From: Podospora anserina | Lineage: Eukaryota | Assembly (NCBI GenBank): GCA_017654855.1 | Contig: JAFMPO010000001.1 | Span: 806,001 to 870,000, forward strand | Direction of reading: 5' to 3' | DNA: 64,000 bases | Shown: positions 11,507 through 59,496 of the stretch, piece after piece | How the letters are laid out: each line of letters opens with the position of its first letter | How positions within the stretch are numbered: position 1 is the first letter of the stretch | The notes under the pieces: generated by a model | The model's database searches: none | Seen by the model: the letters and a program-made list of their open reading frames with translations, nothing else | Told to the model about the DNA's origin: nothing | Translations under genes and position numbers: made by a program

Positions 11507-12477
11507 TTTGACTTGTATGAGTGTTTGTTTACTTCGGACCGGCGGTTTGTGATAGCAACACTGACGTTATCAAAGGTGCTGTTGGGATGAGCACATGGAG
11601 ATGGGATATCTGAGGTAGGTATGTAGTCCAGTGTGGGGAAGGACCGGACTGAGTAAGACACTCGGGATGAACTATCGTAGCCGGATGAACTGTGTCTCGG
11701 ACTGTCGATGGGGCCGGTGTTATTTATTCACAAAGTTGACAAGGTGAAGGATTTCGGGGAAAGCATCAATTTGAAATTCACTGCGTTTAAATGATCAGAT
11801 CCTTCCCCCTACGTTTTTACCGCCGACATTGAAGCCGATGACAAGAATATCATTCGGAATTTCACGATATCCAGCTTCCCCTCCTCATGCTACATCATGT
11901 TACACATACGACTAGGACCGAGTCGGAGGTTGATCCGGGGATGACTAATGATGTCATCAGTAAGCGGTTGTCGGATTTAGTTGAACAGGAGCTCTGGAAA
12001 CAACGTCGTGCTCCAACGTCGTGAGCCGGGATATACCGAATCTCAGTCCTTCAGGCATTGAGTTTGAGAGAAAGTGTGCGGTGTTCAAGTCTGTCTGCCT
12101 TGGCTGTTCGTGAGACCTGTTGGGCTTGCATGCGTCCTCCCGCTACATCGGACAAAACTCCATGCTCAACCCGCTTTGCTTTTTTCCACACCAGACGGCG
12201 GCGGACTATAACTTCCCTTCCGTCATGACAGCACCAGAAAGAATAGCAGAAAAGAATAAAATTGTCAAAGAAGAAGCTGCCCCGCGTTTTGAAATCTTGA
12301 TTGGCAGGGACTGGCGTCCTTGGTGGGGCTGCATAGCGCTCGAAACGCTGCGGCTTGGTGGCCAATTCAGTGGCTGTGCTTTCGACAGCGGCTTCAAAGC
12401 CAACCTATCACTCTCACCACAAAATAACGGGCACTCAGAAGTGGGTTAAACCCATATTATATTAGAAACCACACCTC

Positions 12478-43063: not shown

Positions 43064-45622
43064 ATGGCTCACAACACCACCGCCAGTCGTGTGAAGCGAT
43101 TCCTTGGGATCCGTCCCGAGGATGAGCTCCATGACGCCGACTTTTACGACGATGGACTCTACCTCGAGTCTGAACCCTCGGCCAAGGAGGCTCTGGCTCA
43201 TCTGGTGCCCACCGCTGACGGAATCAAACACTACTTCAGGGAGCTGTTTCCGTTCTGGGGCTGGATATTTCACTACAATTTGACATGGTTACTCGGAGAT
43301 CTCATTGCTGGTAAGCACTGCCTGCCAGTCACTGATTCAGCTGTGTCTGACAAACCTTCCCAGGCATCACTGTCGGGTTTGTTGTTGTCCCTCAGGGTAT
43401 GGCCTACGCTGGTTTGGCCAATCTGCCCCCCCAGTTCGGATTGTACACCAGCTTCGTGGGATTTTTCCTCTACTGGGCCTTTGCCACCTCAAAGGATATC
43501 ACAATCGGCGTGAGTTCTTCTGATATCACTTTGGACTTTATGATCAAGAGGCTGACACAAAAGTCTAGACCGTTGCAGTGATGTCCACTATTGTTGGAAA
43601 CATCATACTCGACATCCGAGCAACGCAGCCTGAACTCGAGGCTGAGGTCATTGCACGAGCTCTGGCTTTGATTTCAGGCGTGATTCTGCTGTTTATTGGA
43701 CTTACCAGACTCGGTTTCATCGTCGAATTCATTCCGCTCACAGCTATCGGCGCCTTCATGACTGGTTCTGCCATCAGTATCGCCGCTGGACAGGTGCCGA
43801 CAATGATGGGAATTTCGACTGTCAAGACTCGCGAGGAGACATACAAAGTCATTATCAACACCCTCAAACACCTGGGCGATACCAGGCTTGATGCTGCAAT
43901 GGGGTTGTCGGCCTTGTTCGGTCTTTACTTTATCCGCTGGTTTTGCGGCTTCATGGGTCAACGCAGCCCCACCAGATCCAAGATGTGGTTCTTCATATCC
44001 ACCCTCCGCATGGCTTTCATCGTCATCTTGTACATTCTCGTGAGCTGGTTGGTCAACAGAGGCGTGTCGGATGAGAAGAATGCCAAGTTCAAGATTCTCG
44101 GCACTGTCCCAAGTGGTAAGTGGCTACGTTTGACCATACACCTCAGAGATTTGGCTGACTTGTGTCGTGTCCAGGTTTCCAACATGTTGGTGCTCCTGAA
44201 ATCAACACTGAGATCTTGTCCGCCATCGCACCTCATCTTCCGGTCACCGTTATCGTCCTGCTGATCGAGCACATCGCGATTTCAAAGTCTTTTGGGCGTG
44301 TCAACAACTACATGATCAACCCTTCGCAGGAGCTGGTGGCTATAGGTTTCAGCAATGTCTTTGGGCCATTCCTCGGAGGCTATCCGGCCACCGGTTCGTT
44401 TTCGCGTACAGCCATCAAGGCAAAGGCTGGCGTCAGAACCCCCCTCGCCGGCATCTTCACAGCCGTCATTGTGCTACTGGCACTCTACGCGCTCACATCG
44501 GTTTTCTTCTACATTCCTTCGGCATCTTTGGCAGCAATCATCATTCACGCTGTCGGTGATCTTATCACACCTCCGCGGGAGGTGTACAAGTACTGGCAGA
44601 CATCGCCTCTCGAAGTTGTTATCTTCTTCGCCGGCGTGTTTGTTTCCATCTTCACCTCCATTGAAAATGGTATCTATGTCACAATCGCTGCGTCTGGGGC
44701 TGTTTTGCTTTGGAGGATTGCGAAAAGCCCAGGTAGCTTTCTGGGCCGTGTTCAGCTGCAGCACGCCAGCCGGGACAGTATCCTCAAGAAGGAGAATGTC
44801 GACCAATCTGCCCTGGATGGCGAGAAGCATTCGGCGTACCTTGATCTCGGCCGCCGTGACCAATCCAACCCGCAGGTTCCCATCACATCACCGTACCCCG
44901 GCGTCTTCATCTACCGATTCAACGAAGGTCTGAACTACGTCAACTGCGCACGACACTTGGACAAGATGACGGTGTATATCTACAAGCACACTCGAAGGAC
45001 GCAGCTCAACAAGTACGACAAAATCGGCGATCGCCCCTGGAATGATCCAGGCCCGCGTCGCGGTCAGGTTGTGGACACTGAGGAGATTGCTTCCAAGCCC
45101 AAGCTCAAGGCCATCATCCTTGATTTCAGCGCTGTAAACGCCATTGATGTGACTGCCGCCCAGGCTCTTGTCGATCTCAGGACTCAGTTCAACAAGTACA
45201 CAGATCCCGAGGTTGTGGAGTGGTATTTTGCGGGTGTGACAAACCGGTGGACCAAGCGGGCGCTTGTCGCAGCTGGGTTTGGAGTTGACAGAGGCCATGG
45301 CATTGAAAGGGCAGGGGGGGGCCGGGAGGATGTTGTGGCTGTTGCCGGGGTTGATCCGGATGTCACTGTTGGGAGGAATGAGAAGGAAAGAGGGTCAGGG
45401 GATGTGGACTTGGAGGCTGGTCACGCTGGCTCTGGTGAGAAGCGTGATGAGATTGCACCCGTCTCTTCTGGCGAGTCGAGACCAAGTGGGAAAAGATTGG
45501 CGCCGATCTATGGTGTCAATAGGCCATATTTCCACATTGATGTTGGGACTGCGGTTGCAAGCGTGGTGAGAAATCTGGAGAGAAGAAGGGACACGGAAGA
45601 CTCTAGCTTGGAGGTTTTCTAG
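43064..45622 (+). CDS. SulP/SLC26 sulfate permease with STAS domain; introns 43311-43363, 43510-43568, 44116-44174
   Basis: GDLIAG|ITVGFVVVPQGMAYA, GLYTSFVG, FATSKDITIG, EHIAISKSFG, TGSFSRTA, DRPWNDPGP, IILDFSAVN.ID. Confidence 0.93.
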
Positions 45623-52028: not shown

Positions 52029-53607
52029 TTTTGTTTCGGCGGAAAGGCCTAAATCACAGTAATTATAGAGTTCGACATGAGTAACACGCCTTTCTTCATA
52101 TATCGTGCTGCGTCGTGTTGGAGGACGTAGGGGGCTTACCGTGTGTTCTCAAGGCTGTGATTCAAAGTTAACAAGGCAGGAGCCAGGGGCCTTACTCTAG
52201 CTTGTAATCTGTCAGCTCCTGTCTCTCCAGGATAGAAAAGTCTCCCGATCCGGGTCGGGCACTCAGGTGTGGCATTGAATATTTCGATTGAATTCTCGTG
52301 GCCTAAATGCGGGCGGAAGTATGGCGTATCGCAAGGGGACCCAACTGCATAATAAACGAATAAATAAATAAATGGCATTGAAGCCACTGAAGAAGAAGAA
52401 TATCGATCCAAATGCGGATCTGTTCCTCTTACACGGCCTCGGAGCTGACGCTATTCCCATTCTCCGTTCCAGAGACACAACCTCGTACCATGAAATTGTA
52501 TCCTCTCACCGCTTCAGCCGCCGGCTTGACTTTATGACGCGATTTGACACCAGTCGCCATATACGTGATAGCATTTAGCACCACTAATTTGAAAGAAGAG
52601 CAATTTCCAACGTAAACACGTCACTGATCAAGAACATGCCGCAGGCTGAGAGCAGCGTATCAAACACAACGCTACTATGGGCTGAGGCGCGTTTGAATTA
52701 TGTCGAAACACTGATAAGGTGCCCAGTCAACAAAATCATGAACCTCGCTCTACGAGATAACTTGTCTCAACTGCTCCTTCGCCAAACCGACACGTGCATG
52801 ATGACGAATCAGAGGGAAGAGAATCAGGGAACCAGTATATATGGGGAGATCTGCCATAAAGATGGTAACGCGGACTATGTAACGAACTTGGAGAAAACAG
52901 TACAGAGCCAAACTGATGAACCTGTGATGACAAGTTCGGGATGAAATGCAGAGAAGCAGAAGTGAGCCCAGCACACTGTAAGTCGAATGTTCATTCTGTC
53001 TTTTGGGGTCTTGGTGATCCTCAGCTTCGTTCCAAGAAATTAACATACCCCGAGTACCTCCTCGGCGATCAAGATTCGACATGGACAAGGGACAGAGGTG
53101 GAACTAGAGAACAAATGCCGGACCCACAGGGTGTTCGCCGATGTGGAAGCTCCACAGGGTGAAGGTCCCCGTTGTTCGGCTGGCAGTTCCAGAAACAGTG
53201 GGCTCCGGGAGCAAGGGTCTCCTGCACAACCGAGTTTCTGTTCGGCGAGTGGTGAAGGGGAAGCTGAGATCCGGGATGTCGAGAAAAACGAAGGGCGGCT
53301 CGTGGCTTGGGGCCAAAAGGGGATGATCGCCGCAACCTCATGCCAGTGGTGGTTAAAACAGGATATCAGGGAAAACATCCAGACCAATCAGTGGGTTACC
53401 GTATACTTGCCAGAGGGAACTGTGGAGTGGTGAAAGCCTGTTGGCCCTTGGGCACAAACTGAAGTAGCAGTACCCATGTTGTAGGTAAAGATATAAATAT
53501 ACATGGGCCGCATGAGCCCGAATCTCAGCATGTACACAGAAAGAACCATATCCGAGAATTCCAAACTTGGGCAACTGTCCCATTACCCTCACTTGACCAA
53601 ACCGACC

Positions 53608-54783
53608 TCAACCAATCAACAACCCCATCAACCCTCCCGCCGCAAACGTCGCCCCGACCGTCAAAAAACTCGACATCGACAGCAGTGAAATCCCCGAGAT
53701 CCCATGCCCAGATGTGCAACCCCCAGCCATCCTCGACCCCAAGATCATCAAGAACCCACCCACCGCCGCGCTCAAGGGACTGACAACCACATCCGTCACC
53801 TCGCCAAACTTGGGGGCACCGTGCGACAGGAAATACGACCCAACAATAACACCGGCAGAGAACAGCATGTTCCTGTACTTCTCCGGCACCAGCTTTCCAC
53901 CAAGCATCCACCCGCCGACTTCCTCATACGAAGTAGACATGCCGACCAGGCAACCCCTGACAACCAAGCTCAGCAGCTGCGCTCCGGCAATCAACATCCC
54001 GCCATAATAAGGAGGGATCTTGGCTTCTGGGCCAACTTCGGTGAATTTGGCTGCGGCAATAACGATGCCGACAAACATGGCCTCCAACCCAAGCAACAAA
54101 GTCCCCTTGCTGACCCCCAGAACCTCGTGGACTGTTGCTTTTGGTGATGGTGATGCCGAGCCAGCCTTTGGTGGTGTTGGACATTGGGTGAGCAGTGGCT
54201 TCAGGAACCCTGACCAAACTACACCGGCAAGGGAGGCACCGGCGAAGGCGTACACTCCTGACTTGACACCTACTCCCAGCTGGGCGAGGACTGTGCCGGG
54301 GCAGGCGCCGGAGAGCATCATTCCTGAGCCGAGGAGGATACCGCCTAGGATGTTGCCGTCGTAGGGGCCGAACAGCCCGAGGCTGGAGGCGGCACGGGGG
54401 ACGAGGTTTGGATGGTTCGGTTGGAGGGCTTGGGCTATTGAGACGGTGGCTCTGAGGGGGTGTTAGCTTGAGATGTGAGGAGAGTGACGAAACCAGGAGT
54501 AGACGTACGCTGAACCGGCAGCCGCGGTGAGGAAGGTTTGGATCATGTGGAAGTTGGTGAAGTTGAGTTGTGAGATGATGACCGAAGGTTGGAATACTCC
54601 TGATGCTGTCAAGGCGGCACCAAAGGCGGCGCCTGTGAGGAGGGTGTTGATTTCTGACATTGCTCCTGTTTGTTCGGTTTGTTGTCCCTGTGAGCGAGAA
54701 GCACTTTCAGTTGTTGGTGTGTTTGATGGCAAAAGTGATGAAGATTCGCCCGGCTGATTGTGATTTGGGAGAGAAGACGACAT
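53608..54783 (-). CDS. YeeE/YedE family (thiosulfate/sulfur-compound) transporter; intron 54452-54508; start at 54783 or 54660
   Basis: Family Cys motifs G..LSGACPGT and GSRMAGGCTSGHGISG; Gly-rich hydrophobic helices. Confidence 0.88.
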
Positions 54784-56056
54784 TGGGATGGAATGATCTT
54801 GAGATGACGAGCTGAAAATATTATACTGTTATGTTATGTCTGTGCCCTGGTCCAGGCGGGTCTGTTCTTTAATATCGGCGGTTCGTTCACTCTGCGGGCT
54901 TCGGGGAACAGTCTTAACAGCGGCGGACGGACGTTCAGAAGGGTGGGATAGTGGGGTATCAACGAACGTCACCTCTTCGGCCACCACACCACCATCCCAA
55001 CCTGCGAAGTTGCTGCAGGGCATAGCTTCAACGCAGGGGGCCAGCCTTGGTGGCGTGGGCATGCCATCCTGCCAGATGATTACGAATCCATCAGCGAATC
55101 GTGGGTAACTGTCAAAGCATCAACATGAGATGTTTGGTCAGTGGAGCACCTTTGCCATGACAGCTTCAACGTTACCGAGCTGACCGACACCTCCCGAGAA
55201 CATGTCTATTTTGGTCAATGCAGGGACAAAATCCCGATCACAACCGTTGCCAACACGTGGGACTTTACCGGCTTCCAGAGCGAGCGAACCAGCAGTGCCT
55301 AGGCGTGACGCACTGAGACAGCTTTTCCGCCGGGGACCAACCAGGGCACCGGGTGCTTCGAGAAGCAAAAGCAAAAGCTGGGATTTCTTTGTGGGAAGAG
55401 GTGGTCGCCGATCGTGCACAGGCCACCCGGGGCGGGAACCGCATATCGGGGTCCAGTGGGTCTCAACCCCGGCAGCCCCCGAGAACCCGGGGCTCGGCAG
55501 TGGGCCCCTAGGTCGTATCTTATCCCCGGAGCTGACAAGCCTATGGCGTTCACATCAGCGAGCTGCATAAGCAATTGTTTCAGAGGCAGTTCAGTATATG
55601 AAATGGCATCCGGGCTTGGGTAGCTGTGAACTTGAGGTCCCCGACCCCAATGTTCCATTGTCATCATCACCGATATTCATGCATTACATCGACGCCGTTT
55701 TATGTCAGCAATTATCCCTGCTGCACTAGGGGATGGCGGCTTTACGCCTTGTGATCTCACGCAGGACCTCAAGAGGATATCACGATGTATTGAAGTTGAT
55801 CCCCGACCATGTACATGCCGGGACACATGCCCTTGCCTGGTCCCCGGCTCAGAGCCCTTCTCATGGAGCGACCAGGTGCTCCCGGATCTCGGTCATCTGG
55901 AGTTCTTCTTGTATGACGGTCGAGAGCTACGTCGGCGATTAATCCTCAGCCTGATAGAATAAACTTGTCACAAATAAAAGCCAGAGGTGACTGCCCACCA
56001 GTTCATCCATTCTATTTCATCCAACCATCGTGCTACAAATTATCCGAGCACTCAAC

Positions 56057-57313
56057 ATGGCATCTCCGATTGTCCACCCCATCTTTGAGCCTGTCACGGG
56101 CACCTGGCAATACATTATTGCTGACCCGTCCACCCTTGCCGCCGCCATCATCGACCCCGTGCTTGATTTTGAACCCGCCCGCAATACCATCTCCACGGCC
56201 ACTGCTGATTCGTTGCTCGATATCGTCGTCCACAACAACTACAAAGTTGGTTATCTTCTCGAGACACATACCCATGCAGACCATCTGTCTGCTTCCCGGT
56301 ACCTCCAGCTCAAGCTCGCGCAATCAACAAACCCGAAAACAGGGATTGGCAAGCGCATCGTCCAGGCCCAAACCACATTTGCCCAGAAATACGGAGTCGA
56401 ACAATCCGAACTCGAAGATGTTTTCGATTTTCTTTGGGAGGATGACCAGACTTTCAGAATCGGTGACTTGGAGGCAAAGGTGGTCCATCTGCCTGGCCAC
56501 ACGCCTGATCATGTTGGATATTTGATTGGCGGTCTGTTTTTTGTCTCTTTCCAGCTCTGTCGGTGATTTTGATGCTGACCGCCTCACCTTAACCACCGCA
56601 GACAACATCTTTTGTGGCGATTCTCTGTTCCTCCCTGACGTTGGCTCAGCCCGTTGCGACTTCCCCGGAGGAGACGCTGTCCAACTGTTAGTGCAACCCT
56701 TTGCTCCTTTTCTCTGTTGTCTTTGCTTCTGCTTCTTCCCTCTCATCAATCCTTTCTCCCGCCCCTTCCCCGTGTCCTTTCACTGCTCCTTTCCTGTTGT
56801 TCCAGTTGTACCTCACTTGCTCCTTCCCTGTTGGTTCCCTGCTCGGTTCCTACCCACCCTTTTGCCCATTTCCCCTTTTGCATTACCACGTTAGCACAGT
56901 ACCACATCACCACATTTGCACATTCCGCTCCTTCAACCATACTCCTTTTCATCTGATCAGTAAAACTAACAACTATTTTCTCTCTATACAGCTACCACTC
57001 AGTCCAAACCCTCTTCTCCCTCCCCCCACATCACAAGATCTACACAGGCCACGATTACCCATCCGGCGACCGCAGCGACCCAGTCCCTTACACGACCGTA
57101 GCCGAGCAACAAGAACGGAACAAACACCTCAAGATTGGCACAACACAACAAGAGTTTGTGAACTGGAGGCAGGAGAGGGACTCGGAGCTTGGGGAGCCGA
57201 GGTTGCTGCACCAGAGTCTGCAGGTTAATATCCGAGGAGGGAGATTGCCGAGGAGTGGGATGTTGGTTTTGCCTTTGAAGGGGGCCAGGGAGGTGGAGGG
57301 TGTGAAGCTTTGA
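56057..57313 (+). CDS. Metallo-beta-lactamase-fold persulfide dioxygenase (ETHE1/PDO/Blh-like); introns 56532-56601, 56687-56991
   Basis: TWQYI, IIDPVLDF, LLETHTHADHLS, PGHTPDH, GDSLFLPDVGSARCDFPGG, YTGHDY, RD..L..PRLL..SLQVNIRGG. Confidence 0.88.
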
Positions 57314-57791
57314 GGATGGGCGTGCCGGGTGGTTGTTTGAATATATGAGATGCGTCGATTGTGGATTGTCATTGGGCTAACCCCCTTTTGTTTGTTTACC
57401 TAGTGCCTATACCCCAAGGGCTATTACGTTGGAAAGAATTGTGACTGATATGAGAATAATCTTATGTACATTTTGAGCTGGACAGCTCCGCCATCAATTC
57501 CGGTTTATGGAGTTTGATTGGGTACACTGCTGCTGCAGTTGGACCCAAAGCTCTATGCTGTTGCAGTGCCAATGCAACAGCAAGACAGACGATGCACAGT
57601 GAACACGCGACGGTGTGGCACAGCTATAGCCGTTGGTTGTTTACTTCAGTACAAGATCTCAAATAACCCATCCCCGCAAGAAACTGGTAAATATGAAACG
57701 ATCGCTCTTGTACATGCCTGGATGGCACTGGGATCTCTGCTCTTTACTGGGCAAGGGGCAGCTTTTTTGAGACTTGCTGGGTCATATTGCA

Positions 57792-59496
57792 ATGGAGTTG
57801 CTCATATCTCTCTTGTCATGGCAATCGATTGCAGTCCCGGCGGTTGCCTACTGCCTCACTCTTGCATTCTACCGCCTCTACTTGGATCCTCTTGCCAAAT
57901 TTCCCGGCCCAAAGCTCGCCGCAATCACTCGCTACTACGAGGCGTATTACGACGTGGTCAAAAAGGGACAGTATACCTTTCGCATCGCCGAGATGCACAG
58001 ACAATATGGTAAGTCGTCGATTATTGAATTCTGCGACCTTGTCAGCTGACGACATACAGGGCCCATCGTCCGGATCAGTCCTTACGAGCTTCACATCAAC
58101 GACCCAGCTTATTTTGAAAAGCTCTACCGCCACGAGGGGCGCTGGAACAAGTACGACTGGTCGGTCGATGCCCAGAATGCCCTTGGTGCCATCATCTTTA
58201 CACCGGACCACCACGAGCACAAGGCCCGTCGGGCACCGCTTAATGCCTATTTTTCCAAATCAAGGGTTGTCCGCCATCAGGACATGATCATCCGTAAGCT
58301 AGAAAAGCTCTGCGGGCGGATTGGCGAGTTTGCAAAAGCTGGAAGAGTGATCGATCTCGGCGCTGCTATAAGTGCTTTCCAGAGGGATGCTTCCACAGAG
58401 TATGTTCTTGGGAAGGACTATAACAGTCTTGACCAACCGGACTTCAGTGTCGGTATGACAAGAATCATGCATGGTGGCGGAAGGATGTGGCACTTGACCA
58501 AGCACATCCGCTGGTACGGGCCTGCTATGCTTTCTATTCCGAAGGAGTTTCTCATCAAGAGCGCTGATCCGGATACGTCAAACTTTATGCGCTATGCGCG
58601 AGTATATACAGCAGTCTACCATTCTTACCCGAGGGACACGGTTGCTGATGTTGCACACAGGACAGCGAAGAGGACACCGCGCAGCTACTCAAAGCGGCCG
58701 CTTCTTACAACCCGGATGATGACACCCCCCGAACCATCGTTCACGAGATCTATGACTCCAATCTTCCCCCCAAGGACAAGACGATCAAGCGTGTCTTTGC
58801 CGACGTCGTCTCAGTGACGGGAGCCGGCTTCGAAACAACAGCCAGCCTCCTCCGGCTGGTTATCTACAACGTCTTTAGCAACACCGACATTCTAACTCGC
58901 CTGCGAGCCGAGCTCACCGAGGTAGCTGCTCGGTCCTCGTCTCCGGATGGATCTATCCCCCTGCAGGTACTTGAACAGCTACCGTATCTAACGGCCGTTT
59001 TGATGGAGGGTATGCGGTTAAGTCCTGCTATTGCCTCCCGCTCTCAGCGTACCGCTCCCGACAGAGATTTGATCTATGACAAGTATCGCATCCCGGCTGG
59101 AACACCTGTGGGCATGACGGTTCTGTTGATGCACATGGACGAAAGGCTGTACCCGGATCCGCATCGGTTTCAGCCGGAGAGGTGGGTAGATCCGGAGGCG
59201 AGGAAGAAGGCTGAGAAGACGTACGCGCCGTTCTCGAGAGGTACGAGGATCTGTCTTGGGATGCAGTAGGTTTCCTCTATTTGTCATTATCTGTTCTGTG
59301 ATCCGACCTGACCGTTTGAGCTAGTCTTGCCTGGGCAGAAATGTATCTGCTTATGGCTGCGATCGTGCAAAAGTTTGAATTTGACTTTGATGGTCTCACA
59401 CCAAAGGACCATTTCAAGGTCGTGAGCGACCAGTTCATCGTCAGCACCAAGGGGAAGGCTGTTTTGGAGACAAGGGTGTCGCTTCGTCAGCGTTGA
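57792..59496 (+). CDS. Cytochrome P450 (trichodiene-oxygenase-like group); introns 58009-58059, 58602-58660, 59266-59324
   Basis: [30 protein letters not shown] (ExxR), [14 protein letters not shown] heme motif. Confidence 0.93.

What the first reader, a model, noticed from the sequence alone, without database searches (positions are those of the whole stretch)
53608..57313. Divergent YeeE/YedE transporter + persulfide dioxygenase: a bacterial-style sulfur detoxification module in a fungus
Seen: head-to-head genes sharing ~1.3 kb, one with YeeE/YedE Cys motifs and one with a PDO-type MBL fold. The PDO has THxHADH, ARCDFPGG and no obvious mitochondrial presequence. Established: bacterial Blh/PDO genes cluster with YeeE/YedE genes in sulfide/persulfide detoxification loci, PDO produces sulfite from glutathione persulfide, and YeeE (TsuA) transports thiosulfate. 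Inference: this is a co-regulated fungal two-gene module for handling H2S/sulfane sulfur/thiosulfate, possibly of old bacterial origin but now intron-bearing.
Basis: partly seen in the sequence, partly recalled or inferred. Interest (0 to 1): 0.8.

Follow-up and report, generated by a model that had tools for sequence, protein, structure and literature searches.

The report
Fungal sulfur channel and persulfide dioxygenase pair
A dung fungus keeps a sulfur-channel gene and a presequence-less sulfur-oxidising enzyme gene side by side, as many bacteria do in sulfide-detoxification operons, and the pairing recurs in distant moulds, so the two probably work together.

Summary
Window 53608-57313 holds two head-to-head genes. 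One is a YeeE/YedE-family membrane protein on the minus strand (one intron). The other is a 293-aa type II persulfide dioxygenase (PDO) on the plus strand (two introns). Spliced RNA contigs from 4 studies carry all three introns.

The PDO keeps the iron ligands and glutathione-binding arginines of solved proteobacterial PDOs and has no presequence. The same fungus (Podospora anserina complex) also has a long paralogue, Pa_3_10790, listed in a mitochondrial CLPXP interactor study and about 150-fold more expressed.

The linkage is conserved. Protein accessions are consecutive in 7 of 9 informative other Sordariomycetes. The pair also lies within 1.4 kb on two metagenomic fungal contigs of other classes. 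All linked PDOs fall in one short-form clade.

Among the 80 closest proteobacterial PDO loci, 31 carry split YedE genes and 23 carry a SulP permease. A SulP gene lies 8 kb away here and directly beside the PDO in one fungal contig.

Co-regulation is not shown: the one published time course gives r = -0.24. Function is inferred, not tested. Verdict: a real eukaryotic variant of the bacterial yedE-pdo2 module, of moderate interest.

The parts
53608..54451 (-). YeeE/YedE-family gene, exon 2 with stop codon (53608-53610). It encodes residues 93-372 of the long form and holds both pore cysteines (GACPG, GGCTSGHG).
   Evidence: ORF; Pfam PF04143 E 3.3e-27; RNA joint at 54451/54509 in 4 of 4 runs
54452..54508 (-). 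YeeE gene intron, 57 nt, GT..AG on the minus strand
   Evidence: Sequence read; joint 'skips 57, CT..AC' in 4 of 4 runs
54509..54783 (-). YeeE gene exon 1. The first ATG at 54783 gives 372 aa; the second ATG at 54660 gives 331 aa (P0001), which is where most homologues start.
54784..55335 (-). Long 5' leader of the YeeE mRNA (about 552 nt), containing 9 upstream ATGs
   Evidence: RNA contigs reach 55334-55432; published 5'UTR of 552 nt; uATG list
55336..56043 (.). Region between the two divergent transcription starts (about 0.7 kb by the published annotation), presumed to be a shared promoter. Some RNA contigs of the PDO gene start further upstream, at 55569-55704.
   Evidence: No Pfam domain in 7 of 7 ORFs of 96 aa or more here; no Rfam hit; no CYS3-type ATGRYRYCAT site with up to 1 mismatch (the motif is recalled)
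56057..56531 (+). PDO gene exon 1 (residues 1-158 and the first base of codon 159). It holds THTHADH and HLPGHTPDH, with Fe ligands H71 and H148.
56532..56601 (+). PDO intron 1, 70 nt
   Evidence: Joint 'skips 70, GT..AG' in 4 of 4 runs
56602..56686 (+). PDO exon 2, holding CGDSLF (Fe ligand D165) and ARCDFPGG (R176)
56687..56991 (+). PDO intron 2, 305 nt and CT-rich. The 346-aa reference protein model reads partly into it.
   Evidence: Joint 'skips 305, GT..AG' in 4 of 4 runs; P0122 compared with P0121
56992..57313 (+). PDO exon 3 with stop codon. It encodes the type II C-terminal region with R246 and R249.
43363..45622 (+). SulP-family permease gene (Sulfate_transp + STAS), a possible third member at lower confidence. 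The 5' end is not defined; it lies 8 kb from the 3' end of the YeeE gene.
   Evidence: Pfam. Colinear at 48-70% identity per exon with the SulP gene that sits directly beside the PDO in fungal contig L013. SulP homologues occur in 23 of 80 proteobacterial PDO loci.

Best explanation
The two genes form a conserved fungal unit for handling sulfane sulfur outside the mitochondrion.

1. The membrane protein has the full YeeE fold, the hourglass channel of the thiosulfate importer TsuA. It keeps the two pore cysteines that were essential in both bacterial proteins tested (C101, C296) and an invariant arginine (R216). I infer that it passes a sulfur species with an exposed sulfane sulfur (polysulfide/S0, persulfide or thiosulfate) across a membrane.
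2. I infer that glutathione captures this sulfur in the cytosol as glutathione persulfide (GSSH).
3. The neighbouring 293-aa enzyme is a type II persulfide dioxygenase. It has a mononuclear Fe site (H71, H148, D165) and three arginines for the glutathione moiety (R176, R246, R249). I infer that it oxidises GSSH with O2 to sulfite and GSH.
4. I infer that sulfite is then assimilated, oxidised or exported. A SulP permease that recurs beside such PDOs is the candidate carrier for the oxyanion.

The unit runs in parallel to the abundant long PDO paralogue (Pa_3_10790, listed in a mitochondrial study) and is expressed at a low, probably inducible, level.

Shown: gene structures, family and fold, catalytic residues, lack of a presequence, paralogy, conserved linkage and the bacterial parallel.
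Inferred: substrate, direction of transport, coupling of the two proteins, localisation and inducibility.
For: Identity of the PDO:
- PDB phmmer: 9g8t (P. aeruginosa PDO, shown to oxidise GSSH; passages of PMC12856154 read) 2e-75 over residues 2-274; 4ysk/4ysl 4e-61; human ETHE1 4e-18; GloB 1e-9 or weaker.
- PaPDO ligands H71/H146/D163 align with H71/H148/D165.
- All three arginines are invariant or nearly invariant in 14 fungal PDOs.

Identity of the channel:
- Pfam 96 bits.
- AF2 model pLDDT 91.1, pTM 0.90. Foldseek hits only the YeeE entries significantly (5 matches at E <= 0.001; 6leo TM 0.76), and the next fold scores TM 0.25.
- C101 and C296 align with StYeeE C91 and C293, the two cysteines essential in both species tested.

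Conserved linkage in fungi:
- Consecutive GenBank protein accessions for the YeeE protein and the short PDO in 7 species: Triangularia setosa, Apiosordaria backusii, Podospora australis, Chaetomium fimeti, Colletotrichum cereale, C. incanum, Thermothelomyces hinnuleus. One gene lies between them in Chaetomium olivicolor.
- Locus tags 123500/123510 across the Podospora complex.
- Fungal metagenome contigs: L013 (divergent, 1.36 kb apart; PDO 74% identical to a Helotiales protein) and L007 (tandem, 0.84 kb apart; 63% identical to a Pleosporales protein).
- This is not block synteny. Of 7 query pieces from 5 neighbouring window genes, only the 2 SulP pieces recur, in L013, and none recurs in L007.

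Paralogy:
- All 10 linked PDOs lie in one short-form clade of 27 rows (SH-aLRT 98).
- The long forms, including Podospora 310790 and Neurospora, form the other group (FastTree agrees).
- Pa_3_10790 is listed among the potential interactors in a study of the mitochondrial CLPXP protease.

Bacterial parallel:
- 31 of 80 closest proteobacterial PDO loci hold split YedE genes. In 27 they are directly adjacent, and 11 of those 27 are divergent as here.
- 23 of 80 hold SulP.
- One locus reads PDO-YedE-YedE-DUF442-SQR-like-SulP.
- The yeeE-yedE-pdo2 BigR operon and the proposed zero-valent sulfur transport by YedE1E2 are in print.

Transcription:
- Both genes are transcribed and spliced in 4 of 4 runs.
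Against: - No experiment on any fungal member was found.
- Co-expression is not seen. SuperSAGE tpm over 7 ages gives Pearson -0.24 and Spearman -0.07, and the study placed the two genes in different clusters. Only the PDO is in that study's list of genes up-regulated with age (3.2-fold). Neither gene changed on contact with Serratia.
- The linkage is not universal. Only 2 of 9 intron-bearing, fungus-like metagenome loci with 5 kb or more of flank have a PDO nearby. In Chaetomidium leptoderma the two genes are on different contigs. Neurospora and Sordaria appear in the lists only with the long form, on other contigs than their YeeE genes.
- The channel has no Cys in the stretch where bacterial TsuA has its first pore cysteine (C22). 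It scores far below the TsuA model cut-offs.
- The bacterial halves come in the opposite order, so it is not a simple fusion of the operon genes.
- Direction of transport, substrate and membrane are unknown even for the bacterial YedE1E2.
- No sulfur-regulator site was found in the promoter (the motif is recalled).
Confidence: 0.6

Rival explanations
1. The two genes work together, but the channel runs the other way. The PDO oxidises persulfides made inside the cell (from cysteine breakdown or H2S), and the YeeE-type protein, with or without SulP, lets the product (sulfite or thiosulfate) or surplus sulfane sulfur out.
For: - PDO makes sulfite, which reacts with GSSH to give thiosulfate (passages of PMC10812762).
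- Bacterial PDO clusters commonly carry exporters such as TauE and SulP.
- The A. baumannii paper leaves both the species and the direction carried by YeeE/YedE open, as 'S*'.
- The only solved relative binds thiosulfate.
Against: - The two functional studies of relatives report uptake: thiosulfate by TsuA and a rise in cellular sulfane sulfur with YedE1E2.
- Nothing in the sequence fixes a direction.
Confidence: 0.2
2. The genes are neighbours but functionally independent. The channel is a nutrient importer (thiosulfate or another sulfur source), the short PDO is a general cytosolic persulfide scavenger, and the adjacency persists for reasons of promoter or chromatin architecture.
For: - There is no positive co-expression in the one time series.
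- Sordariaceae appear in the lists with a YeeE gene but no short PDO.
- 7 of 9 distant fungal loci lack the PDO.
Against: - Adjacency survives where the other flanking genes do not.
- It survives in changed orientation: tandem in L007, divergent in L013 and here.
- The same two families, plus SulP, are independently linked in 31 and 23 of 80 proteobacterial loci.
- Every linked PDO belongs to one paralogue clade.
Confidence: 0.15
3. The MBL-fold protein is not a dioxygenase but a glyoxalase II or other thioester or lactone hydrolase, as its database names ('Zn-dependent hydrolase', 'Glyoxylase B2') say.
For: - Source names.
- GO terms for hydroxyacylglutathione hydrolase in a published annotation.
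- The HxHxDH motif is shared by both enzyme classes.
Against: - The match to solved PDOs is 65 or more orders of magnitude better than to GloB entries.
- The NCBIfam Blh dioxygenase part scores 9.6e-40 against GSH_gloB at 6e-10 for exon 1.
- The PDO Fe triad and the GSH arginines are conserved.
Confidence: 0.03

Closest known systems
Proteobacterial yedE1-yedE2-pdo2 (yeeE-yedE-pdo2 / pmpAB-type) sulfur-detoxification operon under BigR (Acinetobacter baumannii, Serratia, Agrobacterium/Xylella blh locus)
   Same: - The same two protein families sit side by side.
- The PDO is type II (41-49% identical to the 80 closest proteobacterial enzymes).
- A divergent arrangement also occurs in 11 of 27 adjacent bacterial cases.
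- SulP is often nearby.
   Different: - It is eukaryotic: the genes carry introns, are transcribed separately from a shared intergenic region, and have no ArsR/BigR repressor.
- The channel is one 331-372-aa protein whose halves are in the opposite order to the bacterial gene pair.
- The fungal PDOs form their own clade.
- The enzyme is a paralogue of a long form that a mitochondrial study lists.
Type II persulfide dioxygenases with solved structures: P. aeruginosa PaPDO (9G8T), P. putida PpPDO (4YSK/4YSL), B. pseudomallei 4EFZ
   Same: - Full-length colinear alignment (residues 2-274).
- The same Fe triad and GSH-binding arginines.
- The type II C-terminal region is present.
   Different: - About 45-50% identity only.
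- Activity has not been tested for any fungal member.
- It has no DUF442/rhodanese partner domain, so it is not a Blh or PRF fusion.
TsuA/YeeE thiosulfate importer (Spirochaeta thermophila 6LEO; E. coli YeeE) with its partner TsuB/YeeD
   Same: - The same fold over the whole length (TM 0.76).
- The cysteines equivalent to C91 and C293 are present, and an arginine lies near the R215 position.
   Different: - About 21% identity.
- Far below the TsuA model cut-offs (30.7 against 400 bits).
- No cysteine in the N-terminal stretch where TsuA has C22.
- No TusA-like YeeD gene was seen among the Pfam-scanned ORFs around the pair (small ORFs were not scanned).
Mitochondrial sulfide oxidation pathway (SQR + ETHE1-type PDO) of animals and plants, and the fungal long-form PDO (Pa_3_10790 / Neurospora P0181)
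   Same: - The same reaction is expected.
- The long fungal form is the sister paralogue.
   Different: - The window's enzyme has no presequence, whereas the long form has an 86-100-aa Arg/Ser-rich N-terminal extension.
- It is expressed about 150-fold lower.
- It is the only paralogue that is linked to YeeE.
- Animal and plant ETHE1 is type I (4e-18 here).

Membership tests
Type II persulfide dioxygenase (PDO2 / dioxygenase domain of Blh) | MBL fold with HxHxDH motif | tested here: met
   Pfam PF00753 2.6e-7 on exon 1; THTHADH at residues 70-76
Type II persulfide dioxygenase (PDO2 / dioxygenase domain of Blh) | 2-His-1-carboxylate Fe site (PaPDO H71, H146, D163) | tested here: met
   Aligned to H71, H148 and D165 in the phmmer alignment to 9g8t_A. 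The residue list comes from passages of PMC12856154. The residues are invariant in 14 fungal sequences.
Type II persulfide dioxygenase (PDO2 / dioxygenase domain of Blh) | Three GSH-binding arginines (PpPDO R174, R244, R247) | tested here: met
   R176, R246 and R249 align with arginines of 4ysk_A. I mapped the published numbering by spacing, so it is inferred. R176 and R246 are invariant and R249 is at least 90% conserved.
Type II persulfide dioxygenase (PDO2 / dioxygenase domain of Blh) | Closer to type II than to type I (ETHE1), type III (CstB) or glyoxalase II | tested here: met
   E-values: 2e-75, 4e-61 and 3e-56 (type II); 3e-26 and 4e-18 (type I); 3e-8 (3r2u); 1e-9 or weaker (GloB)
Type II persulfide dioxygenase (PDO2 / dioxygenase domain of Blh) | GSSH + O2 -> GSH + sulfite activity | not testable with these tools
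   Needs the purified enzyme
Blh bifunctional sulfurtransferase/dioxygenase (NF040641) | N-terminal DUF442 sulfurtransferase domain fused to the PDO; score above 625 bits | tested here: not met
   Only profile positions 141-407 are matched. The three exons score 136.7, 29.5 and 81.4 bits. The protein starts at the PDO core.
YeeE/YedE family (Pfam Sulf_transp PF04143) | Profile match above the gathering score | tested here: met
   96.3 bits against a cut-off of 27
YeeE/YedE family (Pfam Sulf_transp PF04143) | YeeE fold (hourglass, two inverted repeats) | tested here: met
   AF2 pLDDT 91.1. Foldseek: 6leo E 1e-10, TM 0.76. Only the 5 YeeE matches have E <= 0.001.
TsuA thiosulfate importer (NF052577 / NF041049) | Equivalog score | tested here: not met
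   30.7 bits against 400 and 18.6 bits against 645
TsuA thiosulfate importer (NF052577 / NF041049) | Three pore cysteines (StYeeE C22, C91, C293) | tested here: not met
   C101 = C91 and C296 = C293. No Cys occurs in the N-terminal stretch 'GAAFGAALTASGVFQP' in any of the 14 aligned fungal sequences shown in full. Passages of PMC7449682 say C22A still complements in StYeeE, while the E. coli equivalent is essential.
TsuA thiosulfate importer (NF052577 / NF041049) | TusA-like partner YeeD/TsuB next to it | tested here: inconclusive
   No such domain was found among the ORFs scanned: 150 aa or more over 40-64 kb, and 96 aa or more around the pair. ORFs the size of YeeD (about 75 aa) and spliced genes were not scanned.
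Bacterial yedE1E2-pdo2 operon | Two separate half-size YedE genes (about 140 aa each) beside a type II pdo | tested here: not met
   The fungal gene is single and full-length. The bacterial 5' gene matches the fungal C-half and the 3' gene matches the N-half in every locus where both halves were detected.
Bacterial yedE1E2-pdo2 operon | Conserved adjacency of the channel and PDO genes | tested here: met
   Fungi. Bacteria: 27 of 80 loci directly adjacent and 31 of 80 within 6 kb.

The most novel reading that the evidence does not exclude
Pezizomycotina carry a eukaryotic counterpart of the proteobacterial pdo-yedE-sulP sulfide/sulfane-sulfur cluster. It consists of a dedicated presequence-less PDO paralogue, a full-length YeeE-type sulfur channel and a SulP oxyanion carrier, kept together by selection.

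On this reading the cluster gives moulds an oxygen-dependent route outside the mitochondrion to take up or disarm environmental zero-valent sulfur and polysulfide, for example in dung and decaying matter, and to feed it into assimilation as sulfite. That would be the first YeeE-family channel with a defined enzyme partner in a eukaryote, and a rare case of operon-like clustering of primary sulfur metabolism in fungi.
Probability: 0.35. Interest if true: 0.7.

Novelty: new variant of a known kind. Interest (0 to 1): 0.55.

Why it matters
- Eukaryotic sulfide and persulfide oxidation is usually described as mitochondrial (SQR plus ETHE1-type PDO). A conserved second PDO without a presequence, tied to a YeeE-type channel, would add a compartment and a transport step to fungal sulfur and H2S biology.
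- Neither protein family has been studied in fungi as far as my searches show. The only mention I found is a passing 'in bacteria and fungi' from a STRING neighbourhood analysis (PMC10812762, section 3.2).
- The substrate of the bacterial YedE1E2 proteins is still open. A genetically tractable fungus with a single fused gene and a neighbouring enzyme gives a clean system to test it.
- Practical angles are elemental-sulfur fungicide tolerance, sulfide-rich niches and sulfite handling.

Tried and rejected
- Whole-genome search of the window's own assembly: none is held. Paralogues were found through the protein database instead.
- Complex prediction of channel plus PDO: the tool answered NOT FOLDED for reasons of its own rules.
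- The look-up of sequencing runs listed no holder on record as RNA. The four runs laid proved to be spliced assemblies. Their depths cannot rank genes and I do not use them that way.
- CYS3/MetR-type site ATGRYRYCAT (recalled motif): 1 match in the whole window, at 11948 and not in the intergenic region, against about 1 expected by chance. There were 0 matches with up to 1 mismatch in 54784-56056, against 0.78 expected.
- Rfam on 52500-58000: no hit at E <= 0.1. Tandem repeats: only trivial ones.
- Hidden gene between the pair: no Pfam domain in 13 of 13 ORFs scanned beside and between the genes.
- The search of earlier findings: nothing on fungi.
- Paper searches were badly framed and gave nothing usable.
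- The supplements held as text for PMC3495915, PMC5349155 and PMC7299030 did not contain the gene ids. bioRxiv supplements are closed, so a recent P. anserina sexual-development transcriptome could not be checked.
- I considered a recent bacterium-to-fungus transfer of the pair as an operon and rejected it. Fungal PDOs, chytrid included, form one group apart from the 19-55 closest proteobacterial sequences sampled. The channel's halves are also in the opposite order to the bacterial genes.
- I considered transfer of the cluster between fungal classes, because Helotiales- and Pleosporales-like PDOs nest beside Podosporaceae. This is left open: the support is modest (89), and identities of both proteins fall with taxonomic distance, as vertical descent predicts.


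Full report
**What is there**

Window 53608-57313 holds two divergently transcribed genes.

The minus-strand gene reads as follows:
- ATG at 54783. A second in-frame ATG at 54660 gives the 331-aa form with which most homologues start.
- Exon 1 ends at 54509. A 57-nt intron spans 54508-54452. Exon 2 spans 54451-53611, with the stop at 53610-53608.
- Exon 2 matches Pfam Sulf_transp (PF04143) at E 3.3e-27, 96 bits against a cut-off of 27.

The plus-strand gene reads as follows:
- ATG at 56057, exon 1 to 56531, and a 70-nt intron.
- Exon 2 spans 56602-56686, followed by a 305-nt CT-rich intron.
- Exon 3 spans 56992-57310, with the stop ending at 57313.
- Its three exons match consecutive positions (141-293, 296-320, 323-407) of the dioxygenase part of the NCBIfam model for Blh.

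Evidence for these models:
- Database proteins of 331/372 aa and 293 aa agree with them. Their names place the window in the Podospora anserina species complex (locus tags 123500 and 123510).
- Contigs of four public runs from four studies carry all three introns as joints: skips of 57, 70 and 305 nt with GT..AG ends, in 4 of 4 runs. So these are RNA assemblies, and both genes are transcribed and spliced as modelled.
- The 346-aa reference protein for the enzyme (P0122) reads partly into intron 2. The 293-aa form is the one the RNA supports.

**The enzyme**

Against all PDB chains, the 293-aa protein scores as follows:

| PDB entry | Protein | E-value |
|---|---|---|
| 9G8T | Pseudomonas aeruginosa PDO, residues 2-274 | 2e-75 |
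| 4YSK/4YSL | P. putida PDO | 4e-61 |
| 4EFZ | B. pseudomallei protein | 3e-56 |
| 4YSB | type I PDO | 3e-26 |
| 4CHL | human ETHE1 (type I) | 4e-18 |
| several | glyoxalase II entries | 1e-9 or weaker |

- Passages of the PaPDO paper (PMC12856154) name His71, His146 and Asp163 as metal ligands. They also say that the GSH-binding arginines of PpPDO (Arg174, Arg244, Arg247) are conserved in type II enzymes.
- In the alignments, the ligands fall on H71, H148 and D165, and arginines stand at R176, R246 and R249. I mapped the PpPDO numbers by spacing, so that mapping is inferred.
- These residues are invariant or nearly invariant in 14 fungal homologues.
- The protein starts at the conserved core. 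No in-frame ATG lies upstream of 56057 within the open frame, and a published annotation puts the transcription start 13 nt upstream. No presequence can therefore be encoded.
- It is not a Blh, because the DUF442 domain is absent.

**A long paralogue listed in a mitochondrial study**

- A search with the 399-aa Neurospora homologue found a 381-aa protein in the Podospora complex with locus tag 310790. Its first 86 or so residues are an Arg/Ser/Leu-rich extension with a single acidic residue.
- A table of PMC4683621, seen as a passage, lists Pa_3_10790 as 'ETHE1' among the potential interactors and substrates of the mitochondrial CLPXP protease.
- In an IQ-TREE quick tree of 87 rows (LG+G4, SH-aLRT), fungi separate from 19 proteobacterial sequences (99). 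A chytrid sequence is sister to all Pezizomycotina (99).
- Within Pezizomycotina, a clade of 27 rows (98) holds 26 short forms plus one 403-aa model. A group of 39 rows (81) holds 29 of the 30 long forms, including Podospora 310790 and Neurospora.
- FastTree on 111 rows gave the same separation.
- Eight taxa contribute a sequence to each group: the Podospora anserina complex (the window's short form and P. pseudocomata 310790), P. australis, Apiosordaria, Triangularia verruculosa, Chaetomium olivicolor, Dactylonectria, Ilyonectria, Xylogone and Cercophora sp. So the two forms are old paralogues.
- In a published SuperSAGE series (supplement file 4 of PMC3869774, rows seen), the long form runs at 1299-2100 tpm and the short form at 4.6-15 tpm. 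That is about a 150-fold difference in means.

**The membrane protein**

- An AlphaFold2 model built from 80 fungal sequences has pLDDT 91.1 and pTM 0.90.
- Foldseek against the PDB gives only 5 matches at E <= 0.001, all from the YeeE/TsuA entries (6LEO: E 1e-10, TM 0.76). The next fold scores TM 0.25.
- In the phmmer alignment to 6LEO, C101 (GACPG) aligns with C91 and C296 (GGCTSGHG) aligns with C293. Both are invariant in 80 fungal sequences, as is R216.
- Passages of the YeeE structure paper (PMC7449682) say that C91 and C293 are essential. They say C22A still complements in the Spirochaeta protein, although the E. coli equivalent is essential, and that a conserved arginine sits at the outer mouth.
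- The fungal proteins have no cysteine in the corresponding N-terminal stretch.
- They score far below the TsuA equivalog cut-offs (30.7 against 400 bits).
- So this is a YeeE-fold channel but not a TsuA orthologue. Its substrate should not be assumed to be thiosulfate.

**Is the linkage conserved?**

No fungal genome collection is held, so I used three indirect routes.

(a) GenBank protein accessions, which I take to run serially along a record (an inference).
- The channel and the short PDO have consecutive numbers in Triangularia setosa, Apiosordaria backusii, Podospora australis, Chaetomium fimeti, Colletotrichum cereale, C. incanum and Thermothelomyces hinnuleus.
- Chaetomium olivicolor has one gene between them.
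- In Chaetomidium leptoderma the two genes lie on different contigs, and its channel gene is partial.
- In Staphylotrichum the channel sits on a 1.9-kb contig, which is uninformative.
- That gives 7 consecutive, 1 near and 1 unlinked out of 9 informative species, spanning Sordariales and Glomerellales.

(b) Locus tags 123500/123510 in several species of the Podospora complex.

(c) A scan of metagenome contigs with a fungal channel alignment.
- Nine intron-bearing, fungus-like loci had 5 kb or more of flank on at least one side: L002, L003, L007, L008, L011, L013, L014, L015 and L027. Two of them have a short PDO nearby.
- In L013 the pair is divergent and 1.36 kb apart. Its PDO is 74% identical to a Helotiales protein.
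- In L007 the pair is in tandem and 0.84 kb apart. Its PDO is 63% identical to a Pleosporales protein.
- Both contigs carry fungal-specific transcription-factor domains.

Two further points bear on this:
- The other neighbours are not shared. Of seven query pieces taken from five neighbouring genes in the window, only the two SulP pieces hit L013, and none hit L007. This is not block synteny.
- All ten linked PDOs are in the short-form clade.
- Against universality, Neurospora and Sordaria appear in the lists only with the long form, on other contigs than their channel genes. Seven of the nine distant loci have no PDO.

**The bacterial parallel**

- A scan of one genome per prokaryote species with the PDO alignment returned 80 proteobacterial loci at 41-49% identity.
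- An HMM of the fungal channel found half-size YedE ORFs in 31 of the 80 loci. In 27 they are directly adjacent: 13 downstream on the same strand, 3 upstream on the same strand and 11 divergent.
- A SulP/STAS permease homologue lies in 23 of the 80 loci.
- One Erythrobacteraceae locus reads PDO, YedE, YedE (DUF6691), DUF442, an SQR-like flavoprotein, SulP. A Marinobacter locus reads PDO, SulP.
- Print sources agree. A BigR-controlled yeeE-yedE-pdo2 operon in A. baumannii is described in the abstract and passages of PMC7315123. PMC10812762 (section 3.2 and passages) states that yedE1E2 lies upstream of blh in Agrobacterium, reports a rise in cellular sulfane sulfur with YedE1E2, and remarks that such neighbourhoods occur 'in bacteria and fungi'.
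- In every bacterial locus where both halves were detected, the 5' gene matches the fungal C-terminal half and the 3' gene matches the N-terminal half. The fungal gene is therefore not a simple read-through fusion of the operon pair.

**A possible third member**

- A SulP-family gene (Sulfate_transp + STAS) lies at about 43363-45622 on the plus strand. It is 8 kb from the channel gene, with three or four unrelated genes between them.
- In L013 its colinear homologue (48-70% identity per exon) lies directly beside the PDO, next to a Zn2Cys6 factor.
- With the 23 of 80 bacterial loci, this makes SulP a recurrent companion.
- I could not tell whether it is the fungus's ordinary sulfate permease.

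**Regulation**

- The published annotation gives the channel mRNA a 552-nt 5'UTR and places the two transcription starts 711 bp apart. My RNA contigs agree: the channel contigs reach 55334-55432.
- The leader holds 9 upstream ATGs.
- Co-regulation is not shown. Over seven ages the two genes give Pearson -0.24 and Spearman -0.07. Neither changed on contact with Serratia, while the long PDO went down.
- These were non-inducing conditions with low counts, so the question stays open.

**How it most likely works**

- The channel passes a sulfane-sulfur species, glutathione traps it as GSSH, and the short PDO oxidises it to sulfite.
- Sulfite is then assimilated or carried off, perhaps by SulP.
- Family, fold, residues, paralogy and linkage are shown. 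Substrate, direction, coupling and localisation are inferred.
- The main rival keeps the coupling but reverses the direction of the channel.

**Novelty**

- Searches for fungal work on either family found only the passing STRING remark and the proteomics table.
- This is a eukaryotic variant of a known bacterial module. It is conserved and has its own features: a fused channel in swapped order, a dedicated presequence-less paralogue, and introns.

Noticed in passing
window 43363-45622 (+); L013:3698-6379 (-): A SulP-family permease gene lies 8 kb from the pair. Its colinear homologue sits directly beside the PDO in fungal contig L013, and SulP homologues occur in 23 of 80 proteobacterial PDO loci. 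Whether it is the housekeeping sulfate permease is unknown.
   Followed up: partly
window 54784-55335 (-): The channel mRNA has a 5' leader of about 552 nt with 9 upstream ATGs (uORFs of 2-77 codons). This hints at translational control or an alternative upstream start.
   Followed up: partly
window 56687-56991 (+): The 346-aa reference protein model of the PDO reads into the 305-nt CT-rich intron 2. RNA joints in 4 of 4 runs support the 293-aa protein.
   Followed up: yes
L081-L160 (e.g. L089:6819-7714, L145:6779-8078): Bacterial split YedE genes beside type II PDOs are always ordered [fungal C-half-like][fungal N-half-like], the reverse of the fused fungal and TsuA order. A Hyphomicrobiaceae pair (L145) is by far the closest to the fungal protein (80 and 85 bits).
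   Followed up: partly
protein P0243 (Phlyctochytrium planicorne, 657 aa): The chytrid homologue is a tandem of two complete PDO domains in one protein and has no presequence.
   Followed up: no
protein P0223 (Thyridium curvatum, 1727 aa): A protein model joins a PDO-like MBL domain (59% identical to the window's enzyme) to a NACHT NTPase domain. It is either an NLR with a PDO-like end domain or a merged gene model.
   Followed up: no
tree: Within the short-form clade, Helotiales- and Pleosporales-like PDOs nest beside Podosporaceae rather than outside Sordariomycetes (support 89-97). This could be a tree artefact or movement of the cluster between fungal classes.
   Followed up: no
L013:1657-2926 (-); L007:18035-18877 (-): Fungal Zn2Cys6 / Fungal_trans transcription-factor genes lie near the cluster in both metagenomic fungal contigs, directly beside SulP in L013. 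None was seen near the pair in the window.
   Followed up: no
window 57771-59269 (+): A cytochrome P450 gene follows the PDO gene on the same strand. One RNA contig (run X2) runs from the PDO gene on past position 57900 towards it.
   Followed up: no
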